34,276 nt of DNA, taken from contig JACOVS010000023.1 in assembly GCA_016177205.1 (NCBI GenBank), positions 1 to 34,276 on the forward strand. The letters run 5' to 3'. Under the pieces are notes generated by a model that did not search any database, was not told the origin of the DNA, and saw only the letters and a list, made by a program, of their open reading frames with translations. This stretch comes from Candidatus Aenigmatarchaeota archaeon (GTDB lineage: Archaea; Aenigmatarchaeota; Aenigmatarchaeia; JACPZZ01). The position numbers were made by a program, and so were the translations under genes. Below, piece by piece: positions 12,562 through 28,090 of this stretch (positions are counted from its first letter, which is position 1; every line of letters begins with the position of its first letter).

Positions 12562-12600
12562 ACAGCCAGCCTCAATGAATATTCCAGATTCGACATAAAA

Positions 12601-12754
12601 AGAAGCATATCGCGGAAACTGAAACATACCGCTATAAACTGAAGCATATCGATACAGTATACGATATGCTTCTAGCTTGCCGGTATGTTTCTAGCAACGT
12701 ATGCTTCAGTCGTAGCAACTAGAAACATATGCATACAAACAGCATATGTTTCAG
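12601..12754. repeat. Array of eight copies of a 12-14 nt motif (CGRTATGYTTCWAG) forming nested inverted repeats
   Basis: Copies lie at 12601-12612, 12619-12631 and 12639-12651 (reverse orientation), 12662-12675, 12681-12694 and 12698-12709 (forward), then 12719-12732 (reverse) and 12742-12754 (forward). Perfect 11-bp inverted repeats: 12641-12651/12662-12672, 12621-12631/12681-12691, 12722-12732/12742-12752. Confidence 0.8.
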
Positions 12755-15553: not shown

Positions 15554-16057
15554 ATGAAGCGTACTGGAGCAGCGCTCGCTTTAGCACTTGTTTTCTTATA
15601 TTTAACTGTGCCCGCAGCCGCAGACACGCCGGCAAGGGCGGCAAAGGAATCTGGGGGCATTTTATTCGAGTTAGGTATGTCCTCGTCTATTCCCAGGTCT
15701 TTAGACGATGTTACCATGACATTATCCCTATATAACGCGACAACAGGCAGGCTGATAACACCGGACGAGCTGCTGGTAAAAATATCGAAAACTGACACGG
15801 CGCTCTTCCCGCCCACGTCATTCAAGGCGCAGAAAGACAGCGTCGCAATATTCAGGTATACATTCCCGGAAGGCGGGAATTATGCAATAGGCTTCTCGGC
15901 ATCAAAATCGGATACAAGGGCTAATGCGACATTCGAATTTTTTGTTCAAAGGAGCGAGAACGAAACCACATCAAACCCGATTATCATAATCGTGGGGATA
16001 GTTGCCGTTATTCTGGTTCTTACCCCGTTCTTCATAAGATTCGTGAGCGGCTTTTAA
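15554..16057 (+). CDS. Secreted, C-terminally membrane-anchored protein of unknown function
   Basis: N-terminal signal peptide (MKRTGAALALALVFLYLTVPAAA), a beta-rich middle region with N-x-T/S sites, and a C-terminal TM helix (IIIIVGIVAVILVLTPFFI). Confidence 0.55.
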   Translation: MKRTGAALALALVFLYLTVPAAADTPARAAKESGGILFELGMSSSIPRSLDDVTMTLSLYNATTGRLITPDELLVKISKTDTALFPPTSFKAQKDSVAIFRYTFPEGGNYAIGFSASKSDTRANATFEFFVQRSENETTSNPIIIIVGIVAVILVLTPFFIRFVSGF

Positions 16058-24422: not shown

Positions 24423-25298
24423 TTATTCCTCTGTGGGCGAAATGCCCTTTGACAGGAAGATGAACCCGACGGATATCATGGGCAGGAAAATGAATATCAC
24501 GAAAAACTGGATGGATATTACGGACGAGGTTGGCGAAATCGCAGTCATCACGGCGCTCAATATCAAAAAGAAAACCGACCCCACTATTATCAGGGTTATG
24601 TACATCTCTATGTACAGGGACATTTGTTCGGAGTAGTCCTTGATGCTGCGGCGGAAGTCGGCCATGTAGGATTTTGATTTTTCGTGGAGGTATTCGCTCA
24701 TGCTGCCGCCTGTCGTTATTATCGTGGACAGCCCCCACAGCAGATCCTTGAACTTTTCCGACGGCGTCCTCTCCGACGCTTTCTGAAGCGCTGTTTTGAC
24801 GTCCATGCCGAATATTTCCGTGTCCGTGTAAATTCTGGAAACTTCCCGCGACAGTTCTCCGAACTCGGAGAAGTCCGAGATTATCTTGAACATCTTCGTA
24901 GGCGGCGCGCCCGAACTGGCGATGGTCGCCATGTACATCGTTCCGAAAGGCAGCGAGTTTTCGATTTTTCTTTTCCTGCTGCTTGCAGATAGCGAGGGAT
25001 AGTAATACATAGCGGCGAAGGACATGGAACTCAGCACAAGGGATAAAGTGAACGACATGGTGACCGCCAGCGCAACCGAGCTTATCTGGGCGTACCCGAA
25101 CGCCAGCCCGAGAAGCAGGGAAACTGTCGGCCAGCCGACCAGCATTATCATAAACGAAACAAAGACCATGTTGGATACATATTCGTGGATGGAAACGCGC
25201 ATATCGGCCTTTACCAGCCCCTCCCTCAGCGGGTCAAAATGTTTCAGGTAGGGCTTTACAATGCCGCCGAAATACTTGAACGCGATTTTATTCAGCAT
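24423..25298 (-). CDS. Type IV pilus platform protein, half-size TadB/FlaJ-like
   Basis: 291 aa. TM helices flank a cytoplasmic helical domain (LPFGTMYMATIASSGAPPTKMFKIIS...), matching the T2SSF/FlaJ domain organisation. Confidence 0.65.
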   Translation of the reverse strand: MLNKIAFKYFGGIVKPYLKHFDPLREGLVKADMRVSIHEYVSNMVFVSFMIMLVGWPTVSLLLGLAFGYAQISSVALAVTMSFTLSLVLSSMSFAAMYYYPSLSASSRKRKIENSLPFGTMYMATIASSGAPPTKMFKIISDFSEFGELSREVSRIYTDTEIFGMDVKTALQKASERTPSEKFKDLLWGLSTIITTGGSMSEYLHEKSKSYMADFRRSIKDYSEQMSLYIEMYITLIIVGSVFFLILSAVMTAISPTSSVISIQFFVIFIFLPMISVGFIFLSKGISPTEE

Positions 25299-25319
25299 CT
25301 TATCTCCTTGTAAAACGAG

Positions 25320-25638
25320 TTGGTGTTGTTTAACTTTGCCGCCGGGAAGTCCCCTTTCGCAAGGTGGGGGACGAGAGGCGCGTTATATCGGAACGCCATA
25401 AACATAAGGATATTTATGCAACACCATCCCTTATTATCATTGCTAACACGCAGACATAAGGTCGCAATAACAAAACCTGTGCATATCCCTGTGTTGCGTA
25501 AAGTCAGACGGGCAAGTGCACAAGCGCATTACCTTCGGGACGAGGGGAATTAAAGCCTGTTGGAGATTCCGCGTGTAATCCGTGAATCAGGAAGCACTAT
25601 GCGAAAGCGTGGTGTAGTTCACTAATAAGCGTAATGCC
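25320..25638 (+). ncRNA. Candidate structured RNA of unknown class in the 340-nt gap inside the pilus gene block
   Basis: No credible ORF. Helices seen: 25349-25354/25367-25372; ataaggat/atcccttat around 25405-25434; attgc/gcaat around 25439-25468; ggaat/attcc (25546-25550/25566-25570); gtgaa/ttcac (25582-25586/25618-25622) enclosing the 8-bp stem CACUAUGC-GAAA-GCGUGGUG, which has two G-U pairs valid only on the plus strand; gcattac/gtaatgc (25526-25532/25631-25637). Confidence 0.4.
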
Positions 25639-25639
25639 G

Positions 25640-28090
25640 CTATTCCACCATGTTCAGGATTTTGTCCGGGTCTGAATTGTACATGCTGAATATTCTGGCA
25701 ACCGAGGAGAAGTCGTTGATCCCGCGCTCCTGCATCCATTCCAAAACCTTTACCCTGTTTGAAATCTCCTGCTGCACCGATTTTTCCGGCATGCTGCCGG
25801 AATAAGCGATTTTTTTTAGCACTGCGCTCCTTCCCACCGCGCGCAAATAACTTTTGGCAGGGTCCCATTTGAACACTGTGTTGCCGACCGGTGCGCCGTT
25901 CTCGTAGCCGGTTATCTCCATTATCGTATCAATCTTTCTTATGTTCTTGCTCTTGAAAGTTGTCGTGTCGCTGAATATCAGTATGTCAAGGTTTTGTATC
26001 AGGTTGCCGGGCAGGCTTATCGGAGGCGTTGTTAACCTGTCTACAAGTTTCGATATGCTGTCCGCGTGTATCGTAGACATGCCCGGATGGCCCGAAGCCA
26101 TCTGCTGGAACAGCACATAGGCCTCCTTGCCTCGCACTTCCCCGACAATGATGTAGTCCGGCCTCTGTCGCAAGCTTTCTTTCAGCAGGTCAAACATGTC
26201 AACCTCCCCGATTTTCCTGTTGCCAACATCTGATATGGCCGTCCGTGCGACCTCGGGCACCCAGTGTGGGTGCGGTAAGCGAAGCTCAGGCGTGTCCTCA
26301 ATGGAGACTATTTTTTTAGTGGGTTTTATGAAAAGCGAGAGCACGTTCAACAGCGTTGTTTTGCCGGAAGCGGTCGAGCCCCCGATAAGTACTGATTTGC
26401 CGTTTTCGACGGCCAGCCATAGGTAAGCAAGTGCGGTGGCGTTTATCGTTCCGTAGTTAAGCATGTCTATCGGCGTCAGCGGCACGTCGGTAAATTTCCT
26501 TATGGTGAAGTTCGAGCCCCGCCTCGCTATGTCTGTTCCGAGCGTTGCCTGTACCCGTGAACCGTCTGTCAGCGTCCCGTCCAAAAGCGGTTCTGCGACT
26601 GATATCGTCTTGCCCGCCCTCTGCGCGAGTTTGACCGCGAAAGTGTCCAAGGATTTCTGGTCCGGGAATTTTATATTCGTTCTGATTGACCCGATCAACG
26701 GGTTTCTATGGAACACGTAAATCGGTATGTTCGTCCCGTCGCAGCTTATGTCCTCTAAGTTGGGGTCGTTCATTAACGGCTCGATCCTCTCCAGCCCCGC
26801 AAAATCCCTCCTGATATAATATTTGAGGACATCAATTCTTTTTTGGCCCAGCTTTACGCCCATTAACGAGAAAACGTCGTCGGTTTGGCGCATCAGGTAG
26901 CTGACGGCCTCTGCCTTGCGGAGCTTTCTCAGATCCATGTTTAGCCGCTCTTCAAGCAGCTCCTTGCTTTTTGAAAGTATCCGCTTCTCCTCGGGCGTAA
27001 GCGCGGGTTCAAAAACATTGTAAAGCAGGCCGTTTTCCTGCTGATCCCACCTTATGTTTGTGTAAGAATAGACCATCTCGCCCTTTGCGGGAACGCGCGG
27101 TATAAGAGGGTAAACCACATTCACGTTCATTATGTTTTCCGCTTCTTCCGTGTCAATCGGTGGCGGTTTTGCCTTGTCCGGGATTTCTATTCCGTCGGCA
27201 GCGCTTTTCGGTATTATTATGGACCTGCTCTCAACGGCAAATATCGGCCTCAGCTGGTCCGTTGTTTGTTGCGGCTGTGGTTGCGGTTGTGTCATTTGCA
27301 TGACAGGGGCCTGCGGATAGACAGGAAAATAAACGGCCTTGAAACCCCTTGCGTACTTCTCGAAGACTTTGTTCATGTCCACTCTGGGCTGCGGCAACCC
27401 CACTTTAACGCCTTCGGCCCTGTAGCTTTTTATTTTTTCCTGTGTTTTTATCAGTTGTTGCTCGTAGTCCGACATCATTTTTTTAAAGGTCGGCTCATCG
27501 ACTTCTCTCTTGTAGTATTTTTTTTCGATCTCGTCCTTCGCTTTTACCAGGCTGTCCCTTTCAATCTCCGCCTCCCTTAACCTGTCTCCGGCGCCTACAG
27601 CGCCGCTCTCTATTCTGTTCTCGATGCTCGAAAGGCTTTGCCTTATTTCGTCTATGTCATTTAACCTTCCGAAATCCGGCATCGACCTTAACGAGGCCAT
27701 TTCATTGCGCAGCGAGAGGACATCTTCGGCCCCCAGCCTGGCCTGCGTGTTGTCCTCCAGCCTCATGATTCGCTTGTAAATATCCTCGATCGATGCCTCG
27801 GAAACCCCGTATTTCTCCGCAGTCTTTTTCAGGTTGTGCGGGCTTTTCACAAGGTCCTCGATAGGGTTTTTATTAACCTCTTCCCTGTAGGCCGATGCGC
27901 CCAAAAGTTTTCTTACAACAAGTCTTACCTTTGTTTTGGAAACAATCTGCGGCTTGTCATTATTTTCGGCAACGGCTTTCAACGCCACCGCGACAGCTTT
28001 CGATATGTCGGGTTTTTTTACCTCCGCGGCGTCCGAAACCAAGGGTTTTTTCAGGGCGGCTTTCCGCATCAAGGAGTTCAGCTTTATCAT
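25640..28090 (-). CDS. FlaI/TadA/VirB11-family secretion ATPase with a long N-terminal extension (816 aa)
   Basis: Walker A GGSTASGKTTLLN, Walker B/Asp box DYIIVGEVRGKEA, His box GHPGMSTIHA, and a FlaI-like N-domain (VVYPLIP...YNVFEP). These are preceded by roughly 280 aa of basic, coiled-coil and PQ-rich sequence. Confidence 0.85.
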   Translation of the reverse strand: MIKLNSLMRKAALKKPLVSDAAEVKKPDISKAVAVALKAVAENNDKPQIVSKTKVRLVVRKLLGASAYREEVNKNPIEDLVKSPHNLKKTAEKYGVSEASIEDIYKRIMRLEDNTQARLGAEDVLSLRNEMASLRSMPDFGRLNDIDEIRQSLSSIENRIESGAVGAGDRLREAEIERDSLVKAKDEIEKKYYKREVDEPTFKKMMSDYEQQLIKTQEKIKSYRAEGVKVGLPQPRVDMNKVFEKYARGFKAVYFPVYPQAPVMQMTQPQPQPQQTTDQLRPIFAVESRSIIIPKSAADGIEIPDKAKPPPIDTEEAENIMNVNVVYPLIPRVPAKGEMVYSYTNIRWDQQENGLLYNVFEPALTPEEKRILSKSKELLEERLNMDLRKLRKAEAVSYLMRQTDDVFSLMGVKLGQKRIDVLKYYIRRDFAGLERIEPLMNDPNLEDISCDGTNIPIYVFHRNPLIGSIRTNIKFPDQKSLDTFAVKLAQRAGKTISVAEPLLDGTLTDGSRVQATLGTDIARRGSNFTIRKFTDVPLTPIDMLNYGTINATALAYLWLAVENGKSVLIGGSTASGKTTLLNVLSLFIKPTKKIVSIEDTPELRLPHPHWVPEVARTAISDVGNRKIGEVDMFDLLKESLRQRPDYIIVGEVRGKEAYVLFQQMASGHPGMSTIHADSISKLVDRLTTPPISLPGNLIQNLDILIFSDTTTFKSKNIRKIDTIMEITGYENGAPVGNTVFKWDPAKSYLRAVGRSAVLKKIAYSGSMPEKSVQQEISNRVKVLEWMQERGINDFSSVARIFSMYNSDPDKILNMVE

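What the first reader, a model, noticed from the sequence alone, without database searches (positions are those of the whole stretch)
25299..25639. 340-nt non-coding gap inside the pilus operon that folds like a structured RNA on the opposite strand
Genes in this window are typically separated by 0-90 nt, yet 340 nt with no credible ORF lie between the ATPase and the platform genes. The plus strand shows many local helices. The clearest is a long hairpin, GUGAA-UCAGGAAG-CACUAUGC-GAAA-GCGUGGUG-UAG-UUCAC (25582-25622). It has a GNRA tetraloop and two G-U pairs that would be C-A mismatches on the minus strand. That hairpin and a neighbouring one (25546-25570) are enclosed by GCAUUAC/GUAAUGC (25526-25532/25631-25637), giving a multi-helix junction. 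A GUCCCC...GGGGAC hairpin lies at 25349-25372. I could not match it to RNase P or SRP RNA by eye. It could be a housekeeping RNA inserted here, an antisense or regulatory RNA for the pilus genes, or a long structured leader.
Basis: seen in the sequence. Interest (0 to 1): 0.64.

Follow-up and report, generated by a model that had tools for sequence, protein, structure and literature searches.

The report
Foreign non-coding insert in pilus operon
The 340-base gap in this archaeal pilus operon exists because about 254 bases of non-coding DNA, also found in two unrelated groundwater samples, were inserted into the promoter and leader of the platform genes; it may encode a small RNA, but that is unproven.

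Summary
The gap is real and non-coding. It lies in a type IV pilus operon of an Aenigmatarchaeota (DPANN) genome. Seven relatives have only 44-173 nt at this position.

The window holds two copies of the relatives' promoter-leader unit:
- c1 (25631->25589, minus strand) has the TATA-like GCTTATTA directly after the ATPase stop.
- c2 (25334->25299) has no TATA and sits before the platform ATG.

About 254 nt between them (25335-25588) is new DNA. Its core (at least 25392-25581) recurs at about 92-95% identity in two groundwater metagenomes from other studies. One has a different left flank. Nothing else from 20 kb around the gap is matched there, and relatives in the same samples lack the core. 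So this is a patchily distributed, probably horizontally spread non-coding element. No Rfam family matched (so no RNase P or SRP RNA), it is not a tRNA, and it is not a gene remnant.

Evidence for RNA structure is modest and favours the plus strand (z -2.2 versus 0.05). Across the three sequences there is one compensatory pair, one wobble-preserving change and one disruptive change.

My best guess is an accessory small-RNA cassette or a mobile-element fragment. Transcription could not be tested.

The parts
25640..28090 (-). Pilus/secretion ATPase gene (816 aa), upstream neighbour; stop codon at 25642-25640
   Evidence: ORF; Pfam T2SSE, E 6e-30
25589..25631 (-). c1: a full copy of the relatives' internal promoter plus leader. 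It has the TATA-like GCTTATTA at 25630-25623, then spacer, ACACCAC and a leader-like tail, but no ATG follows
   Evidence: Aligns with the entire ATPase-platform gap of L004 (A1). The 34 nt after the TATA match L004 better than any of 5000 shuffles
25335..25588 (.). New DNA (about 254 nt) absent from all seven related loci; boundaries good to a few nt
   Evidence: Relatives' gaps are 44-173 nt. No similarity to the relatives' loci, the rest of the window or the pilus genes
25392..25581 (+). Conserved core of the insert, found in two other groundwater metagenomes at about 92-95% identity
   Evidence: X5 contig covers 25382-25573 (12 differences, 4 gap letters, 71 nt of unlike left flank). X6 contig covers 25431-25581 (8 differences). 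Nothing else longer than 75 nt from 20 kb is matched there
25406..25417 (+). TATA-like AAGGATATTTAT inside a block (25392-25416) with no listed difference in X5; candidate promoter of a plus-strand RNA. The box is near-palindromic, so its orientation is not settled
   Evidence: No listed difference. It resembles AAGGTATATTTAC upstream of gene 15554-16057. A motif scan was inconclusive
25417..25459 (+). Variable stretch. Nine of the ten listed X5 differences, including three indels, fall here
   Evidence: alignment A2
25443..25563 (+). Predicted multi-branch fold. P1 (25443-25451 with 25555-25563) encloses hairpins 25453-25463, 25478-25522 and 25532-25546
   Evidence: RNAalifold on window+X5+X6: 32 pairs, -33.3 kcal/mol on plus versus -26.5 on minus
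25532..25546 (+). Hairpin CCUUCG-GGA-CGAGGG with the only compensatory change (25535 U>C together with 25543 A>G in X6)
25582..25622 (+). Positions 25589-25622 are the antisense of c1. It is strong only on the plus strand and only in this genome
   Evidence: -15.3 kcal/mol, z -4.55 on plus; -4.8, z -0.2 on minus. The orthologous leaders of L004 and L005, and c2, do not form it
25349..25372 (+). GUCCCC...GGGGAC hairpin in the left 50 nt of the insert, which X5 does not share
   Evidence: -13.2 kcal/mol, z -3.2. The X5 flank differs left of about 25382
25299..25334 (-). c2: spacer, leader and GGAG ribosome-binding site of the platform gene, 27 of 34 nt identical to L005 'unit B', but with CCGGCGGCAAAG where relatives have the TATA box
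   Evidence: A1; alignment score above all 5000 shuffles
24423..25298 (-). First half-size platform gene (291 aa), downstream neighbour
   Evidence: Pfam T2SSF, E 2e-17

Best explanation
The gap is an insertion site. Relatives have a short internal promoter plus leader (TATA-like GCTTATTA, spacer, ACCAAC, CTCGTTTTAC, ribosome-binding site) between the ATPase and platform genes. In this genome that unit is present twice (c1 and c2), and about 254 nt of foreign non-coding DNA lies between the copies. The foreign piece carries a core of at least 190 nt. That core also occurs in other groundwater organisms, where the surrounding 20 kb of this window is not matched.

My reading is that the core is a small accessory RNA gene read on the plus strand, antisense to the operon. 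In this reading:
- A conserved TATA-like block (25392-25418) serves as the promoter.
- A variable stretch follows (25417-25459); its first part would be the spacer between the TATA box and the start.
- The conserved body starts near 25441. It folds into a closing helix (25443-51 with 25555-63) around three hairpins.
- The 3' part would run antisense across c1 and the ATPase stop.
- The platform genes would then be expressed by read-through from c1 across the insert, or from weak signals near c2.

Shown: the insertion, the duplicated promoter-leader, the absence of coding capacity, the patchy distribution and the high conservation of the core.
Inferred: transcription, strand, promoter, RNA ends and any effect on pilus expression.
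For: - Seven related Aenigmatarchaeota loci have gaps of 44-173 nt and lack the insert.
- c1 and c2 are each significantly similar to the relatives' promoter-leader.
- The core is about 92-95% identical in runs X5 and X6 from other studies, with a different left flank in X5.
- Across 20 kb of the window, nothing else longer than 75 nt is matched in those runs at >=88%. The nearest relatives' pilus genes are only 72-87% identical at nucleotide level.
- In the source samples only the window's own contig covers the core at >=80%, so relatives in the same samples lack it.
- Substitutions show no codon periodicity, and X5 has frame-breaking indels.
- The plus strand folds better than shuffles (z -2.24); the minus strand does not (+0.05).
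- On the consensus fold there is one compensatory pair (25535/25543) and one G-C to G-U change that keeps pairing only on plus. Four substitutions fall in unpaired positions.
- The X5 conservation pattern (identical block, variable stretch, nearly invariant body) fits a promoter, spacer and RNA layout.
Against: - No transcript data exist; no RNA run holds the stretch.
- Only two partial homologues were found, so covariation rests on one double change. My rough estimate of its chance probability is about 0.03. One substitution (25490 U>G) breaks a predicted pair.
- The fold z-score is within the top 5% of ordinary windows, which is not exceptional.
- The TATA-like box is near-palindromic, and a motif scan did not single it out.
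- The same conservation pattern also fits a minus-strand RNA ending in the U-rich 25409-25394.
- No U-tract terminator follows on plus until 25660.
- No known RNA family matches.
Confidence: 0.35

Rival explanations
1. The insert is an inert fragment of a larger mobile element, virus or plasmid. One example would be the right end of a TnpB-type IS200/IS605 element with its guide-RNA scaffold. It landed in the promoter-leader and has no function for the host. Its conservation reflects recent transfer, and its hairpins serve the parent element.
For: - The distribution is patchy, X5 has a different left flank, and relatives lack it.
- There are no terminal inverted repeats, and hairpins sit near both ends. 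The stems CCUUUCG/CGAGAGG (25352-78) and CCUUCG/CGAGGG (25532-46) are similar.
- The site is AT-rich and TATA-like.
Against: - No hit in phage, plasmid or viral-contig collections.
- It is single-copy in the source metagenomes.
- The plus-frame ORF has no real homologue among 1.84 billion representative proteins. The one hit is an artefact from a tandem-repeat protein.
- The TnpB-like 'RNAINI' lacks the catalytic Asp and has the wrong spacing.
- A search padded to TnpB length found nothing, but I set its region wrongly, so it covered only 17 real residues.
Confidence: 0.3
2. The insert is a long structured 5' leader on the minus strand. Transcription starts at c1, runs through the insert and regulates the platform genes by attenuation or by controlling translation.
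For: - c1 keeps an intact TATA-like box and initiator-like ACACCAC directly upstream of the insert, while c2 has lost its TATA.
- U-rich runs on the minus strand (GGUUUUGUUAUUG at 25477-25465, UUAUGUUUAUGG at 25406-25395; read) could attenuate transcription.
- L006 also carries extra leader sequence, about 95 nt.
Against: - The minus strand folds no better than shuffles (z +0.05).
- The helices that hold up are weakened by A-C mismatches on minus.
- The core occurs in X5 with a different flank where the leader would continue.
- No riboswitch or leader family matches.
Confidence: 0.15
3. The insert is neutral filler at a recombination-prone intergenic hotspot, left over from duplication or illegitimate recombination. 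It has no function at any level.
For: - The region varies among relatives, with one or two promoter-like units and gaps of 44-173 nt.
- The fold statistics are unexceptional.
Against: - The core is about 92-95% identical in two unrelated studies, where the surrounding genes are not matched at all.
- It has no similarity to the pilus genes or other local DNA.
- There is a compensatory pair.
Confidence: 0.12
4. The insert is a housekeeping RNA (RNase P RNA, SRP RNA or similar) relocated into the operon.
For: The size is in a plausible range. By eye there is an AAAGUC string and a GNRA loop.
Against: - No Rfam match at E<=10, including the archaeal RNase P and SRP models.
- It is absent at >=80% identity from related Aenigmatarchaeota in the same samples.
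- A covariance model of the core finds nothing in the seven related loci.
Confidence: 0.02

Closest known systems
Lineage-specific archaeal small RNAs with their own BRE/TATA promoter, including antisense sRNAs in operons (as catalogued in Haloferax, Methanosarcina and Sulfolobus; from general knowledge)
   Same: It is short (about 140-220 nt) and non-coding. It has a TATA-like box about 25 nt upstream of the conserved body, lies opposite to the flanking operon, and belongs to no Rfam family.
   Different: No transcript is shown. The element is patchily distributed and more conserved than its genomic context, which points to horizontal spread rather than a vertically inherited sRNA.
ORF-less derivatives of IS200/IS605-family elements (PATE-like) and TnpB guide-RNA (omega/reRNA) scaffolds
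   Same: It has no terminal inverted repeats and no clear target duplication. Hairpins lie near the ends, the non-coding core is structured, the insertion site is AT-rich, and a TnpB is reported elsewhere in the genome.
   Different: No tnpA or tnpB remnant is detectable. It is single-copy. No matching right end could be compared. The flanking c1/c2 duplication is not a feature of this family.
Internal promoters between the ATPase and platform genes of archaeal type IV pilus operons
   Same: The conserved GCTTATTA...ACCAAC...CTCGTTTTAC unit in relatives, and c1/c2 here, look like such a promoter plus short leader.
   Different: Here the unit is duplicated and split by 254 nt of unrelated DNA.

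Membership tests
Archaeal RNase P RNA / SRP RNA (Rfam) | Score against the family covariance model (conserved P4/CR regions; SRP helix 8 motif) | tested here: not met
   No hit at the gathering score, or at E<=10 on 751 nt and on 261 nt, on either strand
Archaeal RNase P RNA / SRP RNA (Rfam) | Universal presence in related genomes | tested here: not met
   Relatives in the same samples show no copy at >=80% identity. The covariance model finds nothing in the seven related loci.
IS200/IS605-family element or its ORF-less derivative / TnpB guide RNA | A tnpA/tnpB coding remnant, or a right end shared with a TnpB-bearing copy | tested here: inconclusive
   The plus-frame ORF has no Pfam hit and no real homologue. 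The padded C-terminal search found nothing but was mis-specified. The genome's own TnpB locus could not be fetched
IS200/IS605-family element or its ORF-less derivative / TnpB guide RNA | Similar subterminal hairpins at the left and right ends; no inverted terminal repeats; no target duplication | tested here: inconclusive
   Two similar stems lie at 25352-78 and 25532-46, and there are no terminal inverted repeats. An 11-nt repeat with one mismatch is expected by chance about 0.3 times (my estimate). The right stem lies 41 nt from the end
MITE (IS-derived miniature element) | Terminal inverted repeats, a short target-site duplication and multiple copies | tested here: not met
   No terminal inverted repeats. 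No other copy in the window, the related loci or the source metagenomes
Archaeal bulge-helix-bulge intron | An hBHBh' motif (3-nt bulge, 4-bp helix, 3-nt bulge) joining the two insert boundaries | tested here: not met
   The scan gives 6 and 2 candidates against 5.4 expected in shuffles, and none lies at the boundaries
tRNA or tRNA-derived element | A cloverleaf detectable by ARAGORN or the Rfam tRNA model | tested here: not met
Independent small RNA gene | A discrete stable transcript with defined ends | not testable with these tools
   No RNA run holds the stretch
Independent small RNA gene | Covariation supporting a conserved fold | tested here: inconclusive
   Three sequences: one compensatory pair, one wobble-preserving change and one broken pair out of 32 predicted pairs

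The most novel reading that the evidence does not exclude
The core is a new kind of self-contained, horizontally moving small-RNA cassette of DPANN archaea (promoter plus a structured RNA of about 150-200 nt, with no protein gene). Alternatively it is an orphan guide-RNA scaffold used in trans by the genome's TnpB. Either way, it inserts into promoters and rewires expression of surface-structure genes.
Probability: 0.08. Interest if true: 0.7.

Novelty: new member of a known kind. Interest (0 to 1): 0.3.

Why it matters
If the core is a transcribed, mobile small-RNA gene, it would be one of the first accessory non-coding RNAs described for DPANN archaea. These organisms depend on pili and other surface structures for contact with their hosts. 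It would also show that the internal promoter of their pilus operon is a target for insertions.

If it is only a mobile-element fragment, the finding is ordinary. It still explains the odd gap, and it marks a variable hotspot that annotators should not mistake for a housekeeping RNA.

Tried and rejected
- Rfam at gathering and permissive thresholds: nothing. ARAGORN: nothing.
- Coding capacity:
  - The ORFs are short, with no Pfam hit.
  - A word-indexed protein search of the 77-aa ORF found no candidates.
  - A full HMMER scan of 1.84 billion representatives with the 79-aa stop-to-stop frame gave one artefact, a 73-aa tandem-repeat protein whose weak matches add up.
- Remnant of local pilus genes: tblastn and DNA alignments were at noise level.
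- Bulge-helix-bulge intron: chance level.
- The local repeat family CGRTATGYTTCWAG is not present in the gap.
- TnpB C-terminus idea ('RNAINI' in frame with the X5 flank):
  - The motif lacks the catalytic Asp and has the wrong spacing.
  - The padded search was mis-specified by me: its region covered only 17 real residues. It found nothing.
- More homologues:
  - The metagenome scan with a 20-mer returned three loci sharing only 21 nt by chance.
  - Four viral-contig scans found nothing. Phage and plasmid blastn found nothing.
  - Of four sequencing-run searches, the three DNA searches gave only X5 and X6 beyond the source study, and the RNA search listed no runs.
- A covariance model of the core found no second copy in 90 kb of window plus related loci.
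- A Gibbs promoter motif was too weak to rank sites.
- A test for mosaic recombination, using block identities to the relatives, gave no clear pattern.
The window's own genome and the relatives' genomes could therefore not be searched for further copies.

Full report
**Context.** The window comes from an uncultured Aenigmatarchaeota (DPANN) genome from groundwater.
- The finding lies in a block of minus-strand genes that form a type IV pilus locus.
- The upstream neighbour is an 816-aa ATPase (28090..25640; Pfam T2SSE).
- The downstream neighbours are two half-size platform genes (25298..24423 and the next gene; Pfam T2SSF). Pilin-like genes surround them.
- The seven closest loci in the species-representative genome collection are all Aenigmatarchaeota MAGs. 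Their platform proteins are 62-88% identical to the window's.
Neither the window's own genome nor the relatives' genomes could be searched.

**Checking the observation.**
- The gap of 341 nt (25299-25639) is real.
- It has no credible ORF. The longest frames are 77-79 aa (plus) and a 78-aa stop-to-stop frame (minus). None has a Pfam hit.
- A word-indexed search of 5.8 billion proteins found no candidate.
- A full HMMER scan of 1.84 billion representatives gave a single artefact, a tandem-repeat protein whose weak repeats add up.
- Statistically they are less impressive:
  - The whole gap folds at z -1.58 on plus and -0.93 on minus.
  - The inserted part gives z -2.24 on plus and +0.05 on minus.
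  - In a control over 76 windows of the same 34 kb, 5.3% of strands reach -2.24 and 6.6% show as large a strand difference.
  - Single hairpins give z -3 to -4.5, but they were chosen after inspection.

**The gap is an insertion.** In the seven relatives the ATPase-platform gap is 52, 93, 93, 47, 173 and 44 nt. One contig starts inside the gap.
- The relatives share a unit that looks like an internal promoter plus short leader. It reads (A/T)(C/T)GCTTATTA, an A-rich spacer, ACCAAC, CTCGTTTTAC, a ribosome-binding site, then ATG. The GCTTATTA part resembles the CTTAT(T/A)A-type boxes seen 25-40 nt upstream of many genes in this window.
- The window has this unit twice (alignment A1):
  - c1 (25631->25589, minus strand) starts 9 nt after the ATPase stop. 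It aligns without gaps with the whole gap of L004, down to the position where L004 has its ATG. The 34 nt after the TATA box score better than any of 5000 shuffles.
  - c2 (25334->25299) is 27 of 34 nt identical to 'unit B' of L005 and leads into the platform ATG. Where relatives have the TATA box it has CCGGCGGCAAAG.
- The roughly 254 nt between them (25335-25588) match nothing in the related loci, the rest of the window or the pilus genes.
- A related strain in the source samples skips 25299-25637. Two Logan contigs of the same strain carry the same 341-nt gap.

- The 'clearest' hairpin (25582-25622) is, from 25589 on, simply the antisense of c1.
- It is strong only on the plus strand (-15.3 versus -4.8 kcal/mol) and only in this genome. 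The orthologous leaders of L004 and L005, and c2, do not form it.
- Compared with L004, c1 differs at several positions that extend a 5-bp helix to 8-9 bp. This is suggestive, but the direction of change is unknown.
- The 3' strand of the proposed closing helix (25631-25637) lies between the ATPase stop and the c1 TATA box, which is also ancestral DNA.
- The junction is the minimum-energy fold of 25526-25637 (z -2.9). As extended in that fold, its closing helix overlaps the only hairpin that shows covariation.

**The core recurs elsewhere.**
- Besides four runs of the source study, two groundwater metagenomes from other studies hold part of the stretch.
  - A 265-nt contig of X5 matches 25382-25573, with 12 differences and 4 gap letters. 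Its 71 nt to the left are unlike the window.
  - A 151-nt contig of X6 matches 25431-25581, with 8 differences.
- I laid the same two runs on 20 kb of the window at >=88% identity. These were the only matches longer than 75 nt.
- The nearest relatives' pilus genes are only 72-87% identical at nucleotide level.
- In the source samples, which hold several related Aenigmatarchaeota, only the window's own contig covers the core at >=80% identity. That contig is unbroken across it.
- The core is therefore single-copy here and absent from close relatives. It is also far better conserved than its surroundings in the organisms that do carry it.
- That pattern fits horizontal spread or strong selection. 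It does not fit a housekeeping RNA or neutral filler.

**Non-coding, possibly structured.**
- The listed differences show no three-base periodicity, and X5 has indels of +2, +1 and -1.
- In X5, 25392-25416 has no listed difference, 25417-25459 holds nine of the ten listed differences, and 25460-25563 has one.
- RNAalifold on the three sequences gives a plus-strand fold of 32 pairs. Helix 25443-51/25555-63 closes around hairpins 25453-63, 25478-25522 and 25532-46. The energy is -33.3 kcal/mol, against -26.5 for the minus strand.
- On this fold:
  - X6 shows one compensatory double change (25535 U>C with 25543 A>G).
  - X6 shows one G-C to G-U change that keeps pairing only on plus (25509).
  - X5 shows one disruptive change (25490).
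  - Four substitutions lie in unpaired positions.
- My rough estimate for the chance of one such double change among six substitutions is about 0.03. This is a hint, not a demonstration.

**Promoter reading.**
- The block with no listed difference contains AAGGATATTTAT (25406-25417), which resembles AAGGTATATTTAC upstream of gene 15554-16057.
- A start about 25 nt downstream would fall at about 25441, just before the closing helix.
- The box is near-palindromic, and a Gibbs motif from 18 upstream regions was too weak to rank it.
- The same layout also fits a minus-strand RNA ending in the U-rich 25409-25394.
- No RNA-seq run holds the stretch, so transcription and strand remain inferred.

**What it is not.**
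- No Rfam family matches at the gathering score or at E<=10.
- There is no tRNA.
- No bulge-helix-bulge intron lies at the boundaries.
- There are no terminal inverted repeats.
- There is no hit in phage, plasmid or viral-contig collections.
- The single metagenome scan returned only chance 21-nt matches.
  - The 'RNAINI' string in frame with the X5 flank lacks the catalytic Asp, and no protein homology supports it.
  - The idea stays open, because the TnpB locus itself could not be fetched.

**Verdict.**
- The anomaly is real. It is explained by a lineage-specific insertion of about 254 nt of non-coding DNA into a duplicated internal promoter-leader.
- The insert's core is a patchily distributed, well conserved element of unknown class.
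- I favour, at about 0.35, an accessory small-RNA gene on the plus strand.
- An inert mobile-element fragment is nearly as likely, at about 0.3.
- A minus-strand regulatory leader (0.15) and neutral filler (0.12) follow.
- A housekeeping RNA is essentially excluded.
- Interest is moderate to low until transcription or covariation is shown.

Noticed in passing
window 12599-12732 and 34-47; L005 1-60: The motif CGRTATGYTTCWAG occurs 9 times in the window at up to 2 mismatches (1.15 expected). It is mostly a nested array next to the tRNA gene. Similar copies (CGATATGCTTCTGG, CGGTATGTTTCTAG) lie just upstream of the promoter units in relative L005.
   Followed up: partly
L006 3828-4000: Relative L006 has its own extras in the same gap. 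Two hairpins follow the ATPase stop (CGGAAAGC/GCTTTCCG and CATAGGAAAC/GTTTCCTATG). About 95 nt of AT-rich sequence with an AAACTTCTT/AAGAAGTTT hairpin lies between the conserved leader and the ATG. The site therefore looks like an insertion hotspot.
   Followed up: no
L002, L003, L005 gaps (e.g. L005 85-175): Some relatives carry two tandem promoter-like units (ACGCTTATxCG... and ATGCTTATTATT...) between the ATPase and platform genes. Others (L001, L004, L007) carry one.
   Followed up: partly
L003 2-3907; L004 3-3953: In L003 and L004 the open frame ending at the ATPase stop runs for more than 1300 codons. The blocks 600-1200 nt upstream of the stop are only about 50% identical to the window.
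   Followed up: no
window 25443-25529 (minus strand): A 28-aa ORF rich in Cys and His (MRLCTCPSDFTQHRDMHRFCYCDLMSAC) lies inside the conserved core. The X5 and X6 differences give 2 synonymous and 4 non-synonymous changes, and the ribosome-binding-site spacing is poor. I do not regard it as a gene.
   Followed up: partly
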